Virus record (IMG/VR): IMGVR_UViG_3300008448_000002
Location: 1-64,000 of that record
Length of the DNA stretch: 64,000 nt
DNA from: a virus
Direction: 5' to 3' (one strand)
In this document: positions 805 to 63,069 of the stretch, in pieces
Layout of the letters: each line of letters begins with the position of its first letter
How positions within the stretch are numbered: position 1 is the first letter of the stretch
Program-made: the position numbers and the translations under genes
Notes under the pieces: model-generated
Database searches by the model: none
Seen by the model: the letters and a program-made list of their open reading frames with translations, nothing else
What the model was told of the DNA's origin: nothing

Positions 805-3498
805 ATGACACAAGCCCCATTTACTGTACCAAATACAGGATTAAAAATTGATAATACAACAATAGTATCAGACAATAACGAAATTATCATTAATACTGTT
901 AATGGAAATCAACAACCTGATACTACATGGGAATTAAGAAATAATGGGTCAATAGTATTTCCTGATTCAACAGTACAACTAACGGCATATCCTGGTTTAA
1001 GAAGTTCAGGATGGGCATTACAGTATGGAAGTAATACCCTAAGTAATGAAATTACAACCAATACATTTGATTCTACATTTAAGGACGAATCAAATAATAT
1101 TTACTTTTTTGGAAGTACAAAAGATGAATTAGATGGAACAACGCGCCCCTTAATTGTTAAAGTAGATAACGATGGTTCAGTTTTATGGTCTACTATTATT
1201 ACAGATTATGTTGGTATTGCGTGTGGTGGACATATAGTAAACGGTGAAGGAAGTTATATTGTATTATATGTTTCCGATGTAACAGATAACCAAAAAACGA
1301 GATTATTGAATTACTTAATTGATATAGATTCGGGGCAATCACTCAACTCTGCTTCTTCTTTTACATCAACTAATTCCGCAGTTGGTATTAATATACAGGA
1401 TACATGGGCGTTTAGTCCTTCTGGGACTGTTGCTATTGGTTGGTCGGGATTTACTACTAATGATAGTAGAACAGTCAATTTAATAATAATGTCTGACCCT
1501 GCTCCAAGTATTGATACATTTAGTGTATTAAAAACTGATGTTCCAGGATTAAACTTGGATAGTTATCAATCATCTTATATTGATACAACAAATGTTATAA
1601 CGGGGTTTACAGACAACGAAACATACTGGACTATTACCACAGAAAATGCCTTGATAGATTTTACAACTGGTTCACATACTGTAACGATATCACAAAGTAG
1701 TAATGCCACAATTTCTATACAATCTTTTGGCGGAAATATATGGAAATCAATAGGAAGAGCAGGAAACACTTTTGAATATTATAGAAGTACGGCATTAGAT
1801 ACATTGAATGGTTATGTATATGCGGTTGGATATGACAATGATGGGGGTAGTATTGTTTCATCATTTAACACTGATTTAACTGTAAATTGGCACAAAAATA
1901 TAAACTTTGGTTTAAGTTCGTTATTATTAACGGGTGTAGTTACGGACTATTTGGGAAATATATATGTTGTTGGAGATAACGATAGCGGCGGAGGAGTAAT
2001 AACTAAATTAACCAGTGCTGGAAACGTAGTATGGCAAACAAAATTAGACAGTACATCGCAACCGTGGGGGTCATCATATTATAATATAGCAATAAATTCC
2101 AATAATGATATAATAGTGGCGGCGGGAAACTATGGGAGTATTAGTTCACAGGGAGGTGATATATTTCTCGTTAAACTTAATATTGATGGTTCTATTATTT
2201 GGCAAAGAAGTATCGGCACAACATTTGATGATGTGGCAGGGGGTCAATCAAATATTCTTGGATTAAATAATACTGCCACGAGATTTTTAAGTATTGATAG
2301 TGATAATTTTTACTTGGCACTTGCCACAAATTTTAATGGTTCTATATCTAATGCCACTGCTATTAAATTGCCTATTAATGGGAATGGATTGGGATATTGG
2401 GGTGATACTTATAATTTATGGTTATATAAGGTAGAATCATGGCAAGTTACTACAGTTGATGTAAGTGCGGATGCCACCGCAATAACAAATTTAATTGTAT
2501 CCGATTTAAATTATACCGTTGATAGTATAACACCAACTATACAGCAACCAACAATCCCAACAAAATTATCAATCCTCGGTGATAGTAATATTAATACAGG
2601 AAACGTAACCTTCAATGGTGATTTAATAAGTGTAGATGGAAATAATGGAAATTATCCGATACTAATTAATAAAGCGGGAACTAATGGTGGTGGACCAGAA
2701 TTAGATTTTGAATCGGAAACACTTAGTCATGCTGCTTGGTTAAATGGAGTAGATGGATTTAGAATAAGCCTAAACAAACAAGATTCAAATATATTAAAAG
2801 ACTGGGCATTTACACCAGATGGTACGTTGACGCTACCATCGGGCGGCATAATATCAGAGGGCACAGCTACAGGTGCGCTTGGTAGCCAATTACAAACAGT
2901 TGAAATAACACCCAATGGGGGAGGAAGCGCAACTCAAAAATTAGTAATTTACCCAACAGCGGCAGAAGGAAATCATATACATTTAACTTCTGGTGATTTA
3001 ACAGCAACGGATATTTTCTTAGGAAATGATGCCCAATATATAAGAACTACAACAGATGGTGGAATGGTAATTGGCACTAATGTCATTGACCCAACAAGTT
3101 CATCAAGTGGTAATCAATGGGATTTTTCTGTTAATGGAAGTACAAAATTACCAGGTTCTTTAATAAAAAGCACTATAACCAATACTAATAGTAGTGGCGA
3201 CCCTGTATATCCAACACCGATTGATTTAACTAAAAGTGTAAATAAACTATCAACTGGTTATTATACATTAGCAGATGGAGTAGAGGGGCAGATACTATAT
3301 CTAGTACCACAAACTTTAACTACATACAATTCAACTATAATTACAGTTGCCAATGCCAGAATATTGAACAATAGCGGAGCAACAACGGCAACTGTTTATA
3401 CAAACATCGTTTATGTACCATTTGATTCAGTACACAATATAACAACGATGATATTCACTGATGGAGCATGGCAATCAAATAGTGGAGTATGGGATTAA
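805..3498 (+). CDS. Large tail-fibre/adhesin-like protein with beta-propeller repeats
   Basis: 897 aa. Propeller-type repeats (TDYLGNIYVVG, KLTSAGNVVWQ, KLNIDGSIIWQR) and recurring W-x-F-x3-G-x-L-x-LP motifs. Confidence 0.6.
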   Translation: MTQAPFTVPNTGLKIDNTTIVSDNNEIIINTVNGNQQPDTTWELRNNGSIVFPDSTVQLTAYPGLRSSGWALQYGSNTLSNEITTNTFDSTFKDESNNIYFFGSTKDELDGTTRPLIVKVDNDGSVLWSTIITDYVGIACGGHIVNGEGSYIVLYVSDVTDNQKTRLLNYLIDIDSGQSLNSASSFTSTNSAVGINIQDTWAFSPSGTVAIGWSGFTTNDSRTVNLIIMSDPAPSIDTFSVLKTDVPGLNLDSYQSSYIDTTNVITGFTDNETYWTITTENALIDFTTGSHTVTISQSSNATISIQSFGGNIWKSIGRAGNTFEYYRSTALDTLNGYVYAVGYDNDGGSIVSSFNTDLTVNWHKNINFGLSSLLLTGVVTDYLGNIYVVGDNDSGGGVITKLTSAGNVVWQTKLDSTSQPWGSSYYNIAINSNNDIIVAAGNYGSISSQGGDIFLVKLNIDGSIIWQRSIGTTFDDVAGGQSNILGLNNTATRFLSIDSDNFYLALATNFNGSISNATAIKLPINGNGLGYWGDTYNLWLYKVESWQVTTVDVSADATAITNLIVSDLNYTVDSITPTIQQPTIPTKLSILGDSNINTGNVTFNGDLISVDGNNGNYPILINKAGTNGGGPELDFESETLSHAAWLNGVDGFRISLNKQDSNILKDWAFTPDGTLTLPSGGIISEGTATGALGSQLQTVEITPNGGGSATQKLVIYPTAAEGNHIHLTSGDLTATDIFLGNDAQYIRTTTDGGMVIGTNVIDPTSSSSGNQWDFSVNGSTKLPGSLIKSTITNTNSSGDPVYPTPIDLTKSVNKLSTGYYTLADGVEGQILYLVPQTLTTYNSTIITVANARILNNSGATTATVYTNIVYVPFDSVHNITTMIFTDGAWQSNSGVWD

Positions 3499-16601: not shown

Positions 16602-16870
16602 CGTTTTTTGTTCGCATGAGGTCGTTAATCTCATACCGTTCTTTAAAAGAACTGCTTATATTTACATATAAGACCAGACTATATCACAATCCTTTTTTTT
16701 AAAGGATTCCACCCATTTCGCCTCACTTGAGGCTACGAGATTTCTCTCTAGTCGTTGAACCTTCCTTGAATATCAAGGCTTGGCTGCTGATTGTCCTTTT
16801 TTGAGGAGTTTCCAGCAATTAAAGTGGTTATTCAGTGAACATTGCTATTCAAGGTCGCTGCTAATTCTTA
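16602..16870 (-). ncRNA. Group I intron (IA2-like), 269 nt, no internal ORF
   Basis: Core elements AAUUGCUGG, AAUCAGCAG, GUUCAACGACUA and GAUAUAGUC; 5' exon ends in U pairing with GCGA (P1); terminal G; intron UAAGAAUU pairs with the 3' exon (P10); splicing restores FWDGRQHTR|KILLNSLYG. Confidence 0.93.
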
Positions 16871-17047
16871 ACGAGTGTGTTGTCTTCCATCCCAGAATGA
16901 TGCCTCTTTGTAATACGTTTCTGTATTACTTGGAACAATTTTATCATCCTTTAATATGAGATTGTGTTCTTTCATATATACAGATAAACCAGAAGCATCA
17001 CTATTAGAGACAAATTCTTGTATTTTATCTCTTGAGTATATTGTCAT
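16871..17047 (-). CDS. gp43: gp43B exon 1 (59 codons; not in ORF track)
   Basis: MTIYSRDKIQ...YYKEASFWDGRQHTR with AAGGAG 9 nt upstream; spliced product is 408 aa. Confidence 0.85.
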
Positions 17048-60964: not shown

Positions 60965-61552
60965 CTAGCCGACTGTCTGACCACCAATCAATTGTGGTAA
61001 TTGTGTCATCAATCCGTCAGCCTGTGTCGCGTTATCATAACGAATTGTTATATCAATCATTTGTTGGTCACTGGCAGAATAATCCATTGAACCATAACTA
61101 ATAGATGTCAAGAAACATCCTTCGAGAACCCATGATTCCAATACAGCATCATTACCGCCATCTAATACCTCAATAAATGTGGTAAACTTATAGTTAATAC
61201 CAGAAGCAAATGATGTTTGTTCAAAATGGTTTAATTGTTTCTGGTTTTGATGTCCAACCAATCTCGAAATGTTGTTTGTAATATCATCTCTTAAACCAAC
61301 AGAAATTGTATTCCATTCGTGCTTACCTTGAATGTAGGCAGTAGAGTTATAAGAATGTAGAGATATTTCTTGAAAAGAAACGGTTGGTTTATCGCAAGTT
61401 ACAACTTGTTGTGTTAATTCTAATCCGCCAGCTATTGGTCCAAAGTTAATAAATCTTACACGGAAGCGATACTTAAGTTTTGGGGATAACAACCCGCCTC
61501 TTCCGCCGCCATTTTGTAATGGTACTCCAAACTTCGATAATGTATTTGCCAT
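60965..61552 (-). CDS. gp19: Tail tube protein (T4 gp19-like)
   Basis: PKLKYRFRV, GKHEWNTISV.LRDD, W.LEGCF...YG.MDY, ITIRYD; late promoter at 61582-61589. Confidence 0.9.
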   Translation of the reverse strand: MANTLSKFGVPLQNGGGRGGLLSPKLKYRFRVRFINFGPIAGGLELTQQVVTCDKPTVSFQEISLHSYNSTAYIQGKHEWNTISVGLRDDITNNISRLVGHQNQKQLNHFEQTSFASGINYKFTTFIEVLDGGNDAVLESWVLEGCFLTSISYGSMDYSASDQQMIDITIRYDNATQADGLMTQLPQLIGGQTVG

Positions 61553-61620
61553 GTATATAATTCTCCTAAACAGTATACAACTATTTATAAGAATTATATT
61601 ATTTTTCTGTATGAGAAAAT

Positions 61621-61753
61621 AAACTTGCTATTCCTGTCTATTCAGGAACTTCTATCACTTTATGAATGCCCAGTTCACGCCTTTCGTTATGGTCAGACAA
61701 CCTCCTAGTCACCAGCAATAGAATTATAGGTTCAGGATTTCTCCTTCGCAAGC
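61621..61753 (-). ncRNA. Candidate novel structured RNA (~133 nt)
   Basis: About 42% GC island with no ORF; terminal helix GCUUGC/GCAAGU, GAAA tetraloop hairpin, 9-bp UUCUAUUGC/GUGAUAGAA helix; sigma70 promoter starts transcription at its 5' end. Confidence 0.65.
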
Positions 61754-61760
61754 ATAAATA

Positions 61761-61789
61761 ATAATATACTACTTTAACAGGATTGTCAA
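61761..61789 (-). promoter_or_regulatory. Near-consensus sigma70 promoter
   Basis: TTGACA-N17-TATTAT; predicted start ~61753-61754. Confidence 0.75.
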
Positions 61790-61794
61790 TTTAT

Positions 61795-62241
61795 ATGTCA
61801 TCTAAAAAAATCGAAGAAACTTTAAACTTACCATCAATGGAAGATTTATTAAAATCATTAGAAGAAGATAATGAACCATTACAAAAAATAGAAAATGAAC
61901 AAGACATCATTGAGAATCATGATAATGAAATGAACGATATAATGAAAAAAGCCATGACAAGTTATGAATCATTGATGGATTTAGGATTCAATGCTGAGAC
62001 GAGAGTGGCAGGAGAAATATTCGGTGCGGCAGTAAATATGTTAAAGTTATCAACCGATGCTTCAAGAAGTAAAATGGAACAAAAGTTTAAAAAAATAAAA
62101 TTAGAATTAGAAGCTAAGAAAATAGACTATGTTGTTGGTAAGGATAATAAAAGTATAGAAAACAATCAATATCAAGGAAAAGATGTAATAATCATGAATA
62201 GAAATGATTTATTGAAATCTATCAAAGATGATGCTAAATAA
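61795..62241 (+). CDS. Probable terminase small subunit (start revised to 61795)
   Basis: Helical HD.EM...YESLMDLG...KLEL...IMNRNDLLK pattern; CATAAATA at 61753-61760. Confidence 0.55.
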   Translation: MSSKKIEETLNLPSMEDLLKSLEEDNEPLQKIENEQDIIENHDNEMNDIMKKAMTSYESLMDLGFNAETRVAGEIFGAAVNMLKLSTDASRSKMEQKFKKIKLELEAKKIDYVVGKDNKSIENNQYQGKDVIIMNRNDLLKSIKDDAK

Positions 62242-62993: not shown

Positions 62994-63069
62994 AGGAGTA
63001 TAGCTCAACTGGTAGAGCGTTGGTCTCCAAAACCAAAGGTTGTGGGTTCAATCCCCTCTGCTCCTGCCA
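62994..63069 (+). tRNA. trnW: tRNA-Trp (CCA) with encoded CCA end
   Basis: AGGAGTA/TGCTCCT acceptor, TAGCTCAACTGGTAGAGC D-arm, TTGGT-CTCCAAA-ACCAA anticodon arm, GGTTCAATC T-loop. Confidence 0.95.

What the first reader, a model, noticed from the sequence alone, without database searches (positions are those of the whole stretch)
61621..61789. Unannotated ~133-nt structured RNA with its own sigma70 promoter, divergent from the small terminase
TTGACA-N17-TATTAT puts the start at the first base of a helix (GCUUGC) that pairs with the 3' end (GCAAGU). Inside are AGGA-GAAA-UCCU, GAAC/GUUC, a 9-bp UUCUAUUGC/GUGAUAGAA stem, a UGGU-GAC/GUC-ACCA hairpin and a CCUG/CAGG hairpin; GC is about 42% against an AT-rich background. 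One hairpin presents AGGAGGU, the exact complement of the 16S anti-Shine-Dalgarno, with no well-spaced ATG after it. It matches no tRNA, ribozyme or riboswitch I recognise. Hypotheses: ribosome or CsrA-type decoy, anti-defence RNA mimic, or a packaging-related RNA or DNA site.
Basis: partly seen in the sequence, partly recalled or inferred. Interest (0 to 1): 0.82.

Follow-up and report, generated by a model that had tools for sequence, protein, structure and literature searches.

The report
Conserved pseudoknotted small RNA of jumbo phages
The flagged stretch is a real, separately transcribed, about 130-nt folded RNA gene that founds a previously unclassified family found only in giant T4-like phages, beside their tRNA, RNase P RNA and Ro60 genes; what it does is still unknown.

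Summary
On the minus strand, TTGACA-17-TATTAT (61789..61761) sits directly before a ~130-nt RNA (about 61754..61621).

With a covariance model and one degenerate pattern I found 35 distinct relatives in viral and metagenome contigs. I also found one in the cultured Sinorhizobium phage Phosso. None turned up in 185,579 prokaryote genomes.

- **Helices:** 94.6% of cells pair, against 62% when shuffled.
- **Pseudoknot:** a 4-bp pseudoknot (CCYA/URGG) covaries without exception.
- **Strand:** G-U pairs outnumber A-C 56 to 4, so the fold belongs to this strand.
- **Not conserved:** the hairpin said to display AGGAGGU, and the GAAC/GUUC pairing.
- **Neighbour:** the "small terminase" is an unclassified ORF.

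Most relatives have a sigma70-like promoter. Many have a terminator. The RNA normally lies between the tail sheath and tail tube genes. Some copies head tRNA clusters or fill a tRNA-tRNA spacer. In eight lineages a longer form lies upstream of a phage Ro60 gene. Two essentially complete genomes have the RNA but no Ro60.

There is no match to Rfam 15, tRNA or T4 rnaC/rnaD, and YrlA motifs are absent.

Best reading: a stable, trans-acting early RNA that works through a protein partner in tRNA or RNA quality-control metabolism. The mechanism is inferred. The scan noted this same stretch once before.

The parts
61784..61789 (-). -35 hexamer TTGACA of the sigma70-type promoter
   Evidence: Conserved in L005. 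Analogous -35 hexamers with a 17-nt spacer precede most relatives.
61761..61766 (-). -10 hexamer TATTAT; overlaps the + strand late-type promoter motif
61621..61755 (-). Body of the small RNA (module 1). 5' end inferred at 61755-61753. 3' end not defined (after 61623; U-rich tail 61622-61614).
   Evidence: Model R1 gives 168 bits here. Fold z = -2.58. 36 distinct homologues.
61748..61753 (-). P1 5' strand GCUUGC; pairs with 61623-61628
   Evidence: All 6 pairs show double compensatory changes across the family (helix 1).
61623..61628 (-). P1 3' strand GCAAGU
   Evidence: helix 1. The changes in L005 keep pairing through G-U.
61734..61745 (-). P2 hairpin AGGA-GAAA-UCCU
   Evidence: helix 2 (3 of 4 pairs covary). 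The loop is variable in relatives.
61724..61733 (-). Conserved junction GAA-CCUA-UAA. CCUA (61727-61730) is the 5' strand of the pseudoknot.
   Evidence: The Y of CCYA covaries with the R of URGG: 11 C-G and 10 U-A, no exception (helix 3). Nine further loci also comply. The search pattern allowed all four combinations.
61714..61723 (-). P3 5' strand UUCUAUUGCU; pairs with 61650-61659
   Evidence: All 10 pairs show compensatory changes (helix 4).
61650..61659 (-). P3 3' strand AGUGAUAGAA
   Evidence: helix 4.
61704..61713 (-). Conserved GGUGAC followed by UAGG (61704-61707), the 3' strand of the pseudoknot
61686..61701 (-). Pa hairpin (GUUGU / loop CUGACC / AUAAC), placed by analogy with relatives
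   Evidence: Constraint folds of 35 relatives show a hairpin directly after URGGA-N-N. In the window it is inferred; the window's own minimum-energy fold differs here.
61679..61685 (-). Junction GAAAGGC, the counterpart of the family motif UAARGRUA
   Evidence: by direct reading.
61662..61678 (-). Pb hairpin (GUGAA / loop CUGGGCA / UUCAU), placed by analogy with relatives
   Evidence: Inferred in the window.
61631..61648 (-). P4 hairpin UUCCUG-AAUAGA-CAGGAA; loop follows the family consensus AAUNRA
   Evidence: helix 5 (4 of 5 pairs covary). Two compensatory changes already against the 93% relative L005.
61753..61767 (+). Late-type promoter motif CATAAATAATAATAT for ORF 61795-62241
   Evidence: The motif recurs about 12 times in the genome, 17-27 nt upstream of start codons.
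61575..61589 (-). Late-type promoter TATAAATAGTTGTAT of the tail tube gene, downstream of the RNA
   Evidence: It shows that the tube gene does not depend on the RNA's promoter.
60965..61552 (-). Tail tube gene, the conserved downstream neighbour of the RNA
   Evidence: phrog_4542, 5e-61. Downstream and co-oriented in 18 of 35 distinct loci.
61795..62241 (+).
   Evidence: phrog_16202 only. No Pfam family and no credible PDB match.
62994..63069 (+). tRNA-Trp, 1.2 kb from the RNA in the same variable island

Best explanation
The element is a genuine small-RNA gene on the minus strand. Host sigma70 RNA polymerase would start at about 61754 and produce an RNA of about 130 nt.

Shown by comparison: the RNA folds into a four-helix junction (P1 to P4). 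Its long arm P3 carries two small hairpins. A 4-bp pseudoknot (CCYA of the P2/P3 junction with URGG inside the P3 arm) locks the fold. It is the short, module-1-only form of a phage-specific RNA family. That family normally lies between the tail sheath and tail tube genes of Phosso-like giant myophages, in an island that also collects tRNAs, RNase P RNA and Ro60.

Inferred: it acts in trans as a stable RNA. It is made early, either from its own promoter or by excision from tRNA precursors during tRNA processing. It presents about 40 near-invariant, mostly unpaired nucleotides to a protein partner in tRNA or RNA quality-control metabolism. In this view it is a Y-RNA-like adaptor or decoy module that can work with or without a phage Ro60. 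It would not act as an antisense regulator or a Shine-Dalgarno decoy.
For: Real RNA on this strand:
- 94.6% of 708 pair cells are standard pairs, against 62% in shuffles and 33-48% with slid partners. 24 of 29 pairs show double changes.
- G-U pairs 56 against A-C 4.
- Against the 93% relative L005, all 7 substitutions inside helices preserve pairing.
- Pseudoknot pair: 11 C-G, 10 U-A, no exceptions.

Independent gene:
- sigma70-like -35/-10 pairs with a spacer of about 17 nt precede the window copy and most relatives.
- Intrinsic terminators follow in L026, L035, L021, L034, L040, L012 and L028. Each is followed by a separate late promoter and the tube gene.
- The window's tube gene has its own late promoter downstream of the RNA.

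Trans-acting and processed like stable RNAs:
- In L023/L045 the core fills the 103-nt spacer between tRNA-Ser and tRNA-Thr.
- L046 lies between two tRNAs. L058 and L051 head tRNA clusters.

Link to RNA metabolism:
- Ro60 (TROVE plus vWA_Ro60, 1e-57) lies 0.8-2.6 kb downstream on the same strand in L025, L030, L031/33, L057, L006/7, G004 and Phosso, and weakly in L027.
- A bona fide RNase P RNA lies 1.2 kb upstream in L027.

Phage-specific: no pattern match in 185,579 prokaryote genomes.
Against:
- The window copy has no recognisable terminator. The transcript may run on into the tube gene.
- No partner protein is identified.
- The Ro60 link is not obligatory. Genomes G002 (100% complete) and G003 (97%) have the RNA and no TROVE. 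The own record has none in its 194 kb. Atu_ph07 has Ro60 but no copy of this RNA.
- The island is an insertion hotspot, so co-location could be incidental.
- The Y-RNA motif GNCGAAN0-1G and tRNA-like T and D loops are absent family-wide.
- The invariance of CCUGAACCYAUAA and GUGACURGG is partly by construction, because 48 loci were collected with that pattern. Model-found members that were not selected by the pattern (L008, L011, L012, Phosso) do carry these motifs.
Confidence: 0.55

Rival explanations
1. tRNA mimic or decoy. The four-way junction, with a 6-7 bp closing stem, or the X-helix/pseudoknot/P3 core, imitates the tRNA shape. It would engage a tRNA-recognising enzyme, for example RNase P, a modification enzyme, or a host anticodon nuclease used in defence.
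For: Cloverleaf-like topology. Embedded in or next to tRNA genes in L023/L045, L046, L058, L051 and L014. tRNA-Trp lies 1.2 kb away in the window. RNase P RNA genes occur nearby in L027 and L012.
Against: ARAGORN and the Rfam tRNA model do not recognise it. There are no T-loop or D-loop signatures. The junction lengths are unlike tRNA: 10 nt between P2 and P3, and 3 nt between P4 and P1. There is no CCA or discriminator context.
Confidence: 0.15
2. Canonical Y RNA. Module 1 would itself be the Ro60-binding RNA of these phages, and the window copy would use a host Ro60.
For: It meets the operational criterion of Chen et al. 2014 (PMC4201824): same strand and within 4 kb of Ro60, in 8 lineages. 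No other Rfam-recognisable RNA lies near these Ro60 genes. The window copy happens to read GCGAAGG after P1.
Against: CGAA is not conserved at that position in the family. P1 is only 6-9 bp, without a conserved bulge. The RNA persists in complete Ro60-free genomes. Ro60 presence tracks the extra 3' module and further CGAA-headed units, not module 1. Atu_ph07 has Ro60 without this RNA.
Confidence: 0.1
3. Self-processing or other catalytic RNA. The many invariant unpaired nucleotides around a pseudoknotted junction would form an active site, for example for self-cleavage that releases neighbouring RNAs.
For: The degree of conservation and the pseudoknot are typical of ribozymes and aptamers. The RNA sits at boundaries of stable-RNA units.
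Against: No match to any ribozyme family in Rfam 15. A stand-alone gene with promoter and terminator does not need self-cleavage.
Confidence: 0.1
4. Cis-acting leader. The RNA would regulate or stabilise the downstream transcript, whether tail tube or island genes, through attenuation, antitermination or a processing site.
For: It is always co-oriented with, and upstream of, the tube gene. The window copy lacks a terminator, and in L005 an ORF follows directly.
Against: Terminators and separate late promoters lie between the RNA and the tube gene in many relatives. The downstream genes vary widely, by 0-3.5 kb. The core also occurs between tRNA genes, with no mRNA downstream.
Confidence: 0.07
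5. Shine-Dalgarno/ribosome or CsrA decoy, or a DNA-level packaging or replication site.
For: The window copy contains AGGAGGU.
Against: AGGAGG is not conserved and is engaged in the pseudoknot. G-U against A-C asymmetry shows an RNA-level constraint. GGA motifs are not repeated within module 1.
Confidence: 0.03

Closest known systems
Phage T4 species 1 and species 2 stable RNAs (rnaC, rnaD)
   Same: Phage-encoded stable RNAs of about 120-140 nt. They are encoded in or beside tRNA clusters of a T4-type phage and matured together with tRNAs. Their function is unknown.
   Different: No sequence or structure relation. Model R1, run with filters off, finds nothing at T4 70908-71171. rnaC ends in a tRNA-like T arm (read), and this family has none. 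In T4 there is no RNA gene between genes 18 and 19.
Y RNAs / YrlA of Ro60-encoding bacteria and phages (Chen et al. 2014, PMC4201824; Wang et al. 2018, bioRxiv 10.1101/312249; Thermus phage phiLo Yrl1/2, PMC12135203)
   Same: About 100-130 nt. A 5'/3' closing stem with a multi-helix junction. Modular. Encoded upstream of or near Ro60 on the same strand, in 8 lineages of this family.
   Different: Lacks GNCGAAN0-1G and the T-loop and D-loop mimicry. It has a pseudoknot instead. It is kept in Ro60-free complete genomes and is absent from Ro60-bearing Atu_ph07.
phi29-type packaging RNA (pRNA, Rfam RF00044)
   Same: A phage RNA of about 120 nt made from an early promoter, next to morphogenesis genes, with a functionally critical 4-bp loop pairing.
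   Different: pRNA is a three-way junction whose 4-bp pairing is intermolecular. It belongs to small protein-primed podophages. Rfam gives no hit. T4-type terminases need no RNA (textbook knowledge).
Unnamed candidate structured RNAs mined from IMG/VR (Fremin and Bhatt 2023, PMC10690425)
   Same: Same data source and same kind of object: an intergenic, covarying phage RNA.
   Different: I could not check whether this family is among their 8495 candidates, because the supplements are not held. Their candidates average 67 nt and carry no functional description.

Membership tests
Any Rfam 15 family | Covariance-model score at or near the gathering threshold | tested here: not met
   Only chance hits (E 4.2 and 9.2) in 61400-61950. 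Nothing for the homologous RNAs in 16 relative loci.
tRNA | Cloverleaf with T and D loops, recognised by ARAGORN or RF00005 | tested here: not met
   ARAGORN and RF00005 find only tRNA-Trp at 62994-63069.
YrlA / Y RNA | Encoded within 4 kb of a Ro60 (TROVE) gene on the same strand | tested here: inconclusive
   Not met in the window's own record (no TROVE in 194 kb, 51% complete) or in complete genomes G002 and G003. Met in 8 related lineages.
YrlA / Y RNA | GNCGAAN0-1G (CGAA) motif on the 5' strand of the terminal stem | tested here: not met
   The window reads GCGAAGG, but the position varies across the family (GUGAAGG, GCUAAGG, GUCAAGG, CUGAGG and others).
YrlA / Y RNA | tRNA-like T and D stem-loops around a four-way junction | tested here: not met
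   The P2 loop is variable. The P4 loop consensus is AAUNRA. There is no GUUCRANYC or GG loop.
YrlA / Y RNA | Binds Ro60 | not testable with these tools
   This needs a gel-shift or immunoprecipitation experiment.
T4 rnaC / rnaD | Sequence and structure homology | tested here: not met
   R1 with filters off gives no hit in L062:1909-2172.
Independent sigma70 transcription unit | -35/-10 consensus directly upstream | tested here: met
   11 of 12 positions in the window. Conserved in L005, and analogous sites occur in most relatives. Sequence level only.
Independent sigma70 transcription unit | Intrinsic terminator downstream | tested here: not met
   None in the window. Terminators are present after the RNA in many relatives.
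The new family defined here (module 1) | P1-P4 junction, CCYA/URGG pseudoknot, and the motifs UGAACCYAUAA, GGUGACURGGA, UAARGRUA and P4 loop AAUNRA | tested here: met
   The window is the top hit of R1 (168 bits) and carries every element.

The most novel reading that the evidence does not exclude
Module 1 is a new functional RNA class of giant phages. Its pseudoknotted core would be either catalytic or a high-affinity ligand for a host RNA-decay, RNA-repair or defence protein. That would make it an RNA-based takeover or anti-defence factor that works without any phage-encoded protein partner.
Probability: 0.2. Interest if true: 0.85.

Novelty: new variant of a known kind. Interest (0 to 1): 0.62.

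Why it matters
Giant phages carry their own pieces of the translation and RNA-processing apparatus, but their non-coding RNAs are almost unexplored.

This element has about 40 near-invariant nucleotides, a covarying pseudoknot and helices supported by every base-pair type. That level of constraint is usually seen in riboswitches, ribozymes and RNP cores.

It sits with tRNAs, RNase P RNA and Ro60. The RNA partners and the role of phage Ro60 are largely unknown. In Ro60-bearing relatives this RNA and its 3' modules are the only conserved structured RNAs next to that gene.

The family also occurs in a cultured phage, Sinorhizobium phage Phosso (PV764938.1, 288279-288418, unannotated), so the question can be addressed directly by experiment.

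Tried and rejected
- Rfam at gathering and at permissive thresholds, on the window and 16 loci: nothing for this RNA.
- blastn of the region against 50,697 phage records: no match. The Phosso long form finds only itself.
- nhmmer and blastn within the own genome: a single copy. The only repeated piece is the late promoter motif.
- Exact 20-23-mers from the window RNA in IMG/VR: 0 hits.
- Tail-tube relatives at 52% identity (L002-L004): sheath directly abuts tube, with no RNA.
- T4 rnaC/rnaD: no similarity.
- TROVE and RNase P RNA in the own record: none.
- Small ORFs inside the element: the 37-aa TTG ORF is destroyed in L005, where TTG is followed by TGA, so a coding reading is rejected.
- The 148-aa neighbour against Pfam, PDB and PHROGs: it is not identifiable as a terminase.
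- A second, broader covariance model could not be built, because the calibration forecast exceeded the limit.
- The supplements of the IMG/VR structured-RNA catalogue are not held.
- Short-motif resemblances to 5S rRNA, the RNase P L15 loop, 23S rRNA and loop E were considered and dropped. They rest on memory only and have no model support.

Full report
**What is at the site.** Read on the minus strand, the region shows TTGACA (61789-61784), 17 nt and TATTAT (61766-61761). About 130 nt of GC-richer sequence follows (0.41 against 0.317 for the 194,657-nt viral record that holds the window).
- The minus strand folds to -37.4 kcal/mol (z = -2.58). The plus strand reaches only -26.3 kcal/mol (z = -1.53).
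- Rfam 15 recognises nothing here at any threshold, and ARAGORN finds no tRNA.
- The element lies between two divergent late-type promoters. The 15-mer CATAAATAATA(A/G)TAT recurs about a dozen times in the genome, 17-27 nt before start codons.
- One copy (61753-67, plus strand) serves ORF 61795-62241. A variant (61589-75, minus strand) serves the tail tube gene 61552-60965.
- Neither late gene therefore needs the sigma70-like promoter. That promoter has only the structured element to transcribe.
- The -10 hexamer overlaps the plus-strand late motif, which weakens it as independent evidence. The -35 at exactly 17 nt does not overlap it.

**Homologues.** I started from contigs that encode tail tube relatives.
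- The 93% relative L005 has the same element, with promoter, at the same place. It differs at 11 of 135 positions.
- All seven substitutions that fall in predicted helices keep pairing. Three are changes to G-U that are valid only on this strand, and there are two double compensatory changes in P4.
- A covariance model built from these two sequences (R1) then found copies upstream of the tube gene in L008, L011 and L012, where tube identity is 66-69%.
- From their shared motifs I wrote one degenerate pattern. It returned 25 IMG/VR loci and 23 metagenome loci. It returned none from 185,579 bacterial and archaeal genomes.
- In total there are 35 distinct sequences, plus the cultured Sinorhizobium phage Phosso, where R1 scores 42 bits (E 3e-7) in an unannotated gap.
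- Among tube-anchored loci that were not selected by the RNA pattern, have at least 64% tube identity and have enough upstream sequence, six of seven carry the RNA. Agrobacterium phage Atu_ph07 is the exception.

**Structure.**
- On the model-guided alignment, 94.6% of 708 pair cells are standard pairs. Shuffles give 62% and slid partners give 33-48%.
- 24 of 29 pairs show double changes, and P1, P3 and P4 use up to six pair types.
- G-U or U-G occurs 56 times and A-C or C-A 4 times.
- A new feature is a 4-bp pseudoknot. The Y of the junction motif UGAA-CCYA-UAA matches the R of GGUGAC-URGG as C-G (11) or U-A (10), with no exception. Nine further loci comply as well. The search pattern allowed all four combinations.
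- Constraint folding of all members gives one common architecture. It reads P1, P2, junction, then P3 enclosing GGUGAC-URGG-A, hairpin Pa, UAARGRUA and hairpin Pb, then P4 with loop AAUNRA, then P1'.
- Caveats: the alignment was fitted to the model. The invariance of the two motifs used as the search pattern is partly by construction.

**Context.**
- In 17-18 of the 35 loci (those with enough flanking sequence) the order is tail sheath, RNA, 0-3.5 kb of variable ORFs, tail tube, second tube-like protein, head-closure protein, all on one strand.
- Most copies are preceded by a -35/-10 pair with a spacer of about 17 nt. Many are followed by a clear terminator, then a late promoter and the tube gene.
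- Other settings exist. L058 and L051 head tRNA clusters. In L014 a tRNA-like gene abuts the RNA.
- In L023/L045 and L046 a reduced form, in which one closing helix replaces P1, P2 and P4, exactly fills the spacer between two tRNA genes.
- A bona fide RNase P RNA (185 bits) lies 1.2 kb upstream in L027, and a degenerate one lies in L012.
- In many relatives module 1 is followed by a second domain of about 210 nt. That domain is closed by its own helix and ends in AGAUCGA.
- All eight lineages with a Ro60 gene in the island have this long form 0.8-2.6 kb upstream on the same strand. They are L006/7, L025, L030, L031/33, L057, G004, Phosso and, weakly, L027.
- The short-form loci I examined have no Ro60 in the island.
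- Two essentially complete genomes (524 kb and 561 kb) have the RNA but no TROVE protein. The window's own record has neither TROVE nor RNase P RNA in its 194 kb.

**Interpretation.**
- Shown: a phage-specific, strand-specific, pseudoknotted RNA under strong purifying selection. It has the hallmarks of a separate early transcription unit, and it can also sit inside tRNA operons.
- Inferred: it is a stable trans-acting RNA. Its invariant unpaired core binds a partner, most plausibly a protein of tRNA or RNA quality-control metabolism.
- The Ro60 association is real but not obligatory, and it tracks the 3' module. I therefore read module 1 as an autonomous effector-type module rather than a Ro60-binding Y RNA.
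- It fails the defining sequence features of YrlA, of tRNA, of T4 rnaC/rnaD and of every Rfam family.
- A tRNA-shape mimic, a ribozyme and a cis leader remain possible. The Shine-Dalgarno decoy and DNA-site ideas are contradicted by conservation and by the G-U asymmetry.
- I could not obtain expression data. I also could not check the unnamed IMG/VR catalogue of candidate RNAs.

**Verdict.** The finding is real and richer than described. It is the founding example of an unclassified RNA family of Phosso-like giant myophages. Its function is unknown, but it can now be tested in a cultured phage.

Noticed in passing
window 61753-61767 (+), 61575-61589 (-), and about 10 other sites such as 39117, 53635, 59152 and 68073: A recurrent 15-mer, CATAAATAATA(A/G)TAT, lies 17-27 nt upstream of start codons of structural genes. 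It is probably this phage's late promoter, an extended form of T4 TATAAATA.
   Followed up: partly
L027:3400-3695 (+); L012:2605-2867 and 2893-3048 (+): Giant-phage contigs carry an RNase P class A RNA gene. In L027 it scores 185 bits, above the gathering score. L012 has a shortened or degenerate version (55 and 32 bits). Both lie in the same sheath-tube island.
   Followed up: no
L064:2106-2330 (Phosso), L057, L017, L056, L030, L025, L031, L006:85-300: A second conserved structured domain of about 210 nt follows module 1. It is closed by a 10-12 bp helix and ends in AGAUCGA. It has no Rfam match, and it is present in all Ro60-bearing loci.
   Followed up: partly
L041:5000-5400: Several successive units, each headed by AGATCGAAG, lie between the RNA and the Ro60 gene of G004. 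They are possible CGAA-motif Y-like RNAs or processing sites.
   Followed up: no
L063 (Atu_ph07 93591-95246), L064 (Phosso 290301-291965), L006:936-2543, L031:2362-4080: Ro60 (TROVE plus vWA) genes sit between the tail sheath and tail tube genes in a whole clade of giant myophages.
   Followed up: partly
L005:910-1290: In the 93% relative, a 126-aa ORF inserted between the RNA and the tube gene resembles the C-terminal half of a tail tube protein (phrog_4542, 2e-08). It looks like a partial duplication.
   Followed up: no
L014:5460-5541 (-): ARAGORN calls an 82-nt tRNA-Gln with the anticodon at position 38, directly abutting the 3' end of the RNA. It may be an unusual tRNA or a tRNA-like tail.
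   Followed up: no
window 16655-16882 (-): Group I intron (RF00028, 82.9 bits).
   Followed up: no
L013:3241-4458 (-): A TnpB-type gene (OrfB_IS605, Cas12f1-like TNB) is inserted just after the tail tube module of a relative.
   Followed up: no
window 61795-62241 compared with relatives (for example L021:3968-4516): In relatives the 148-aa ORF family lies about 2.6-4.7 kb downstream of the RNA on the same strand, after the head-closure gene. In the window and in L005 it is inverted and placed upstream of the RNA, which indicates a local rearrangement.
   Followed up: partly
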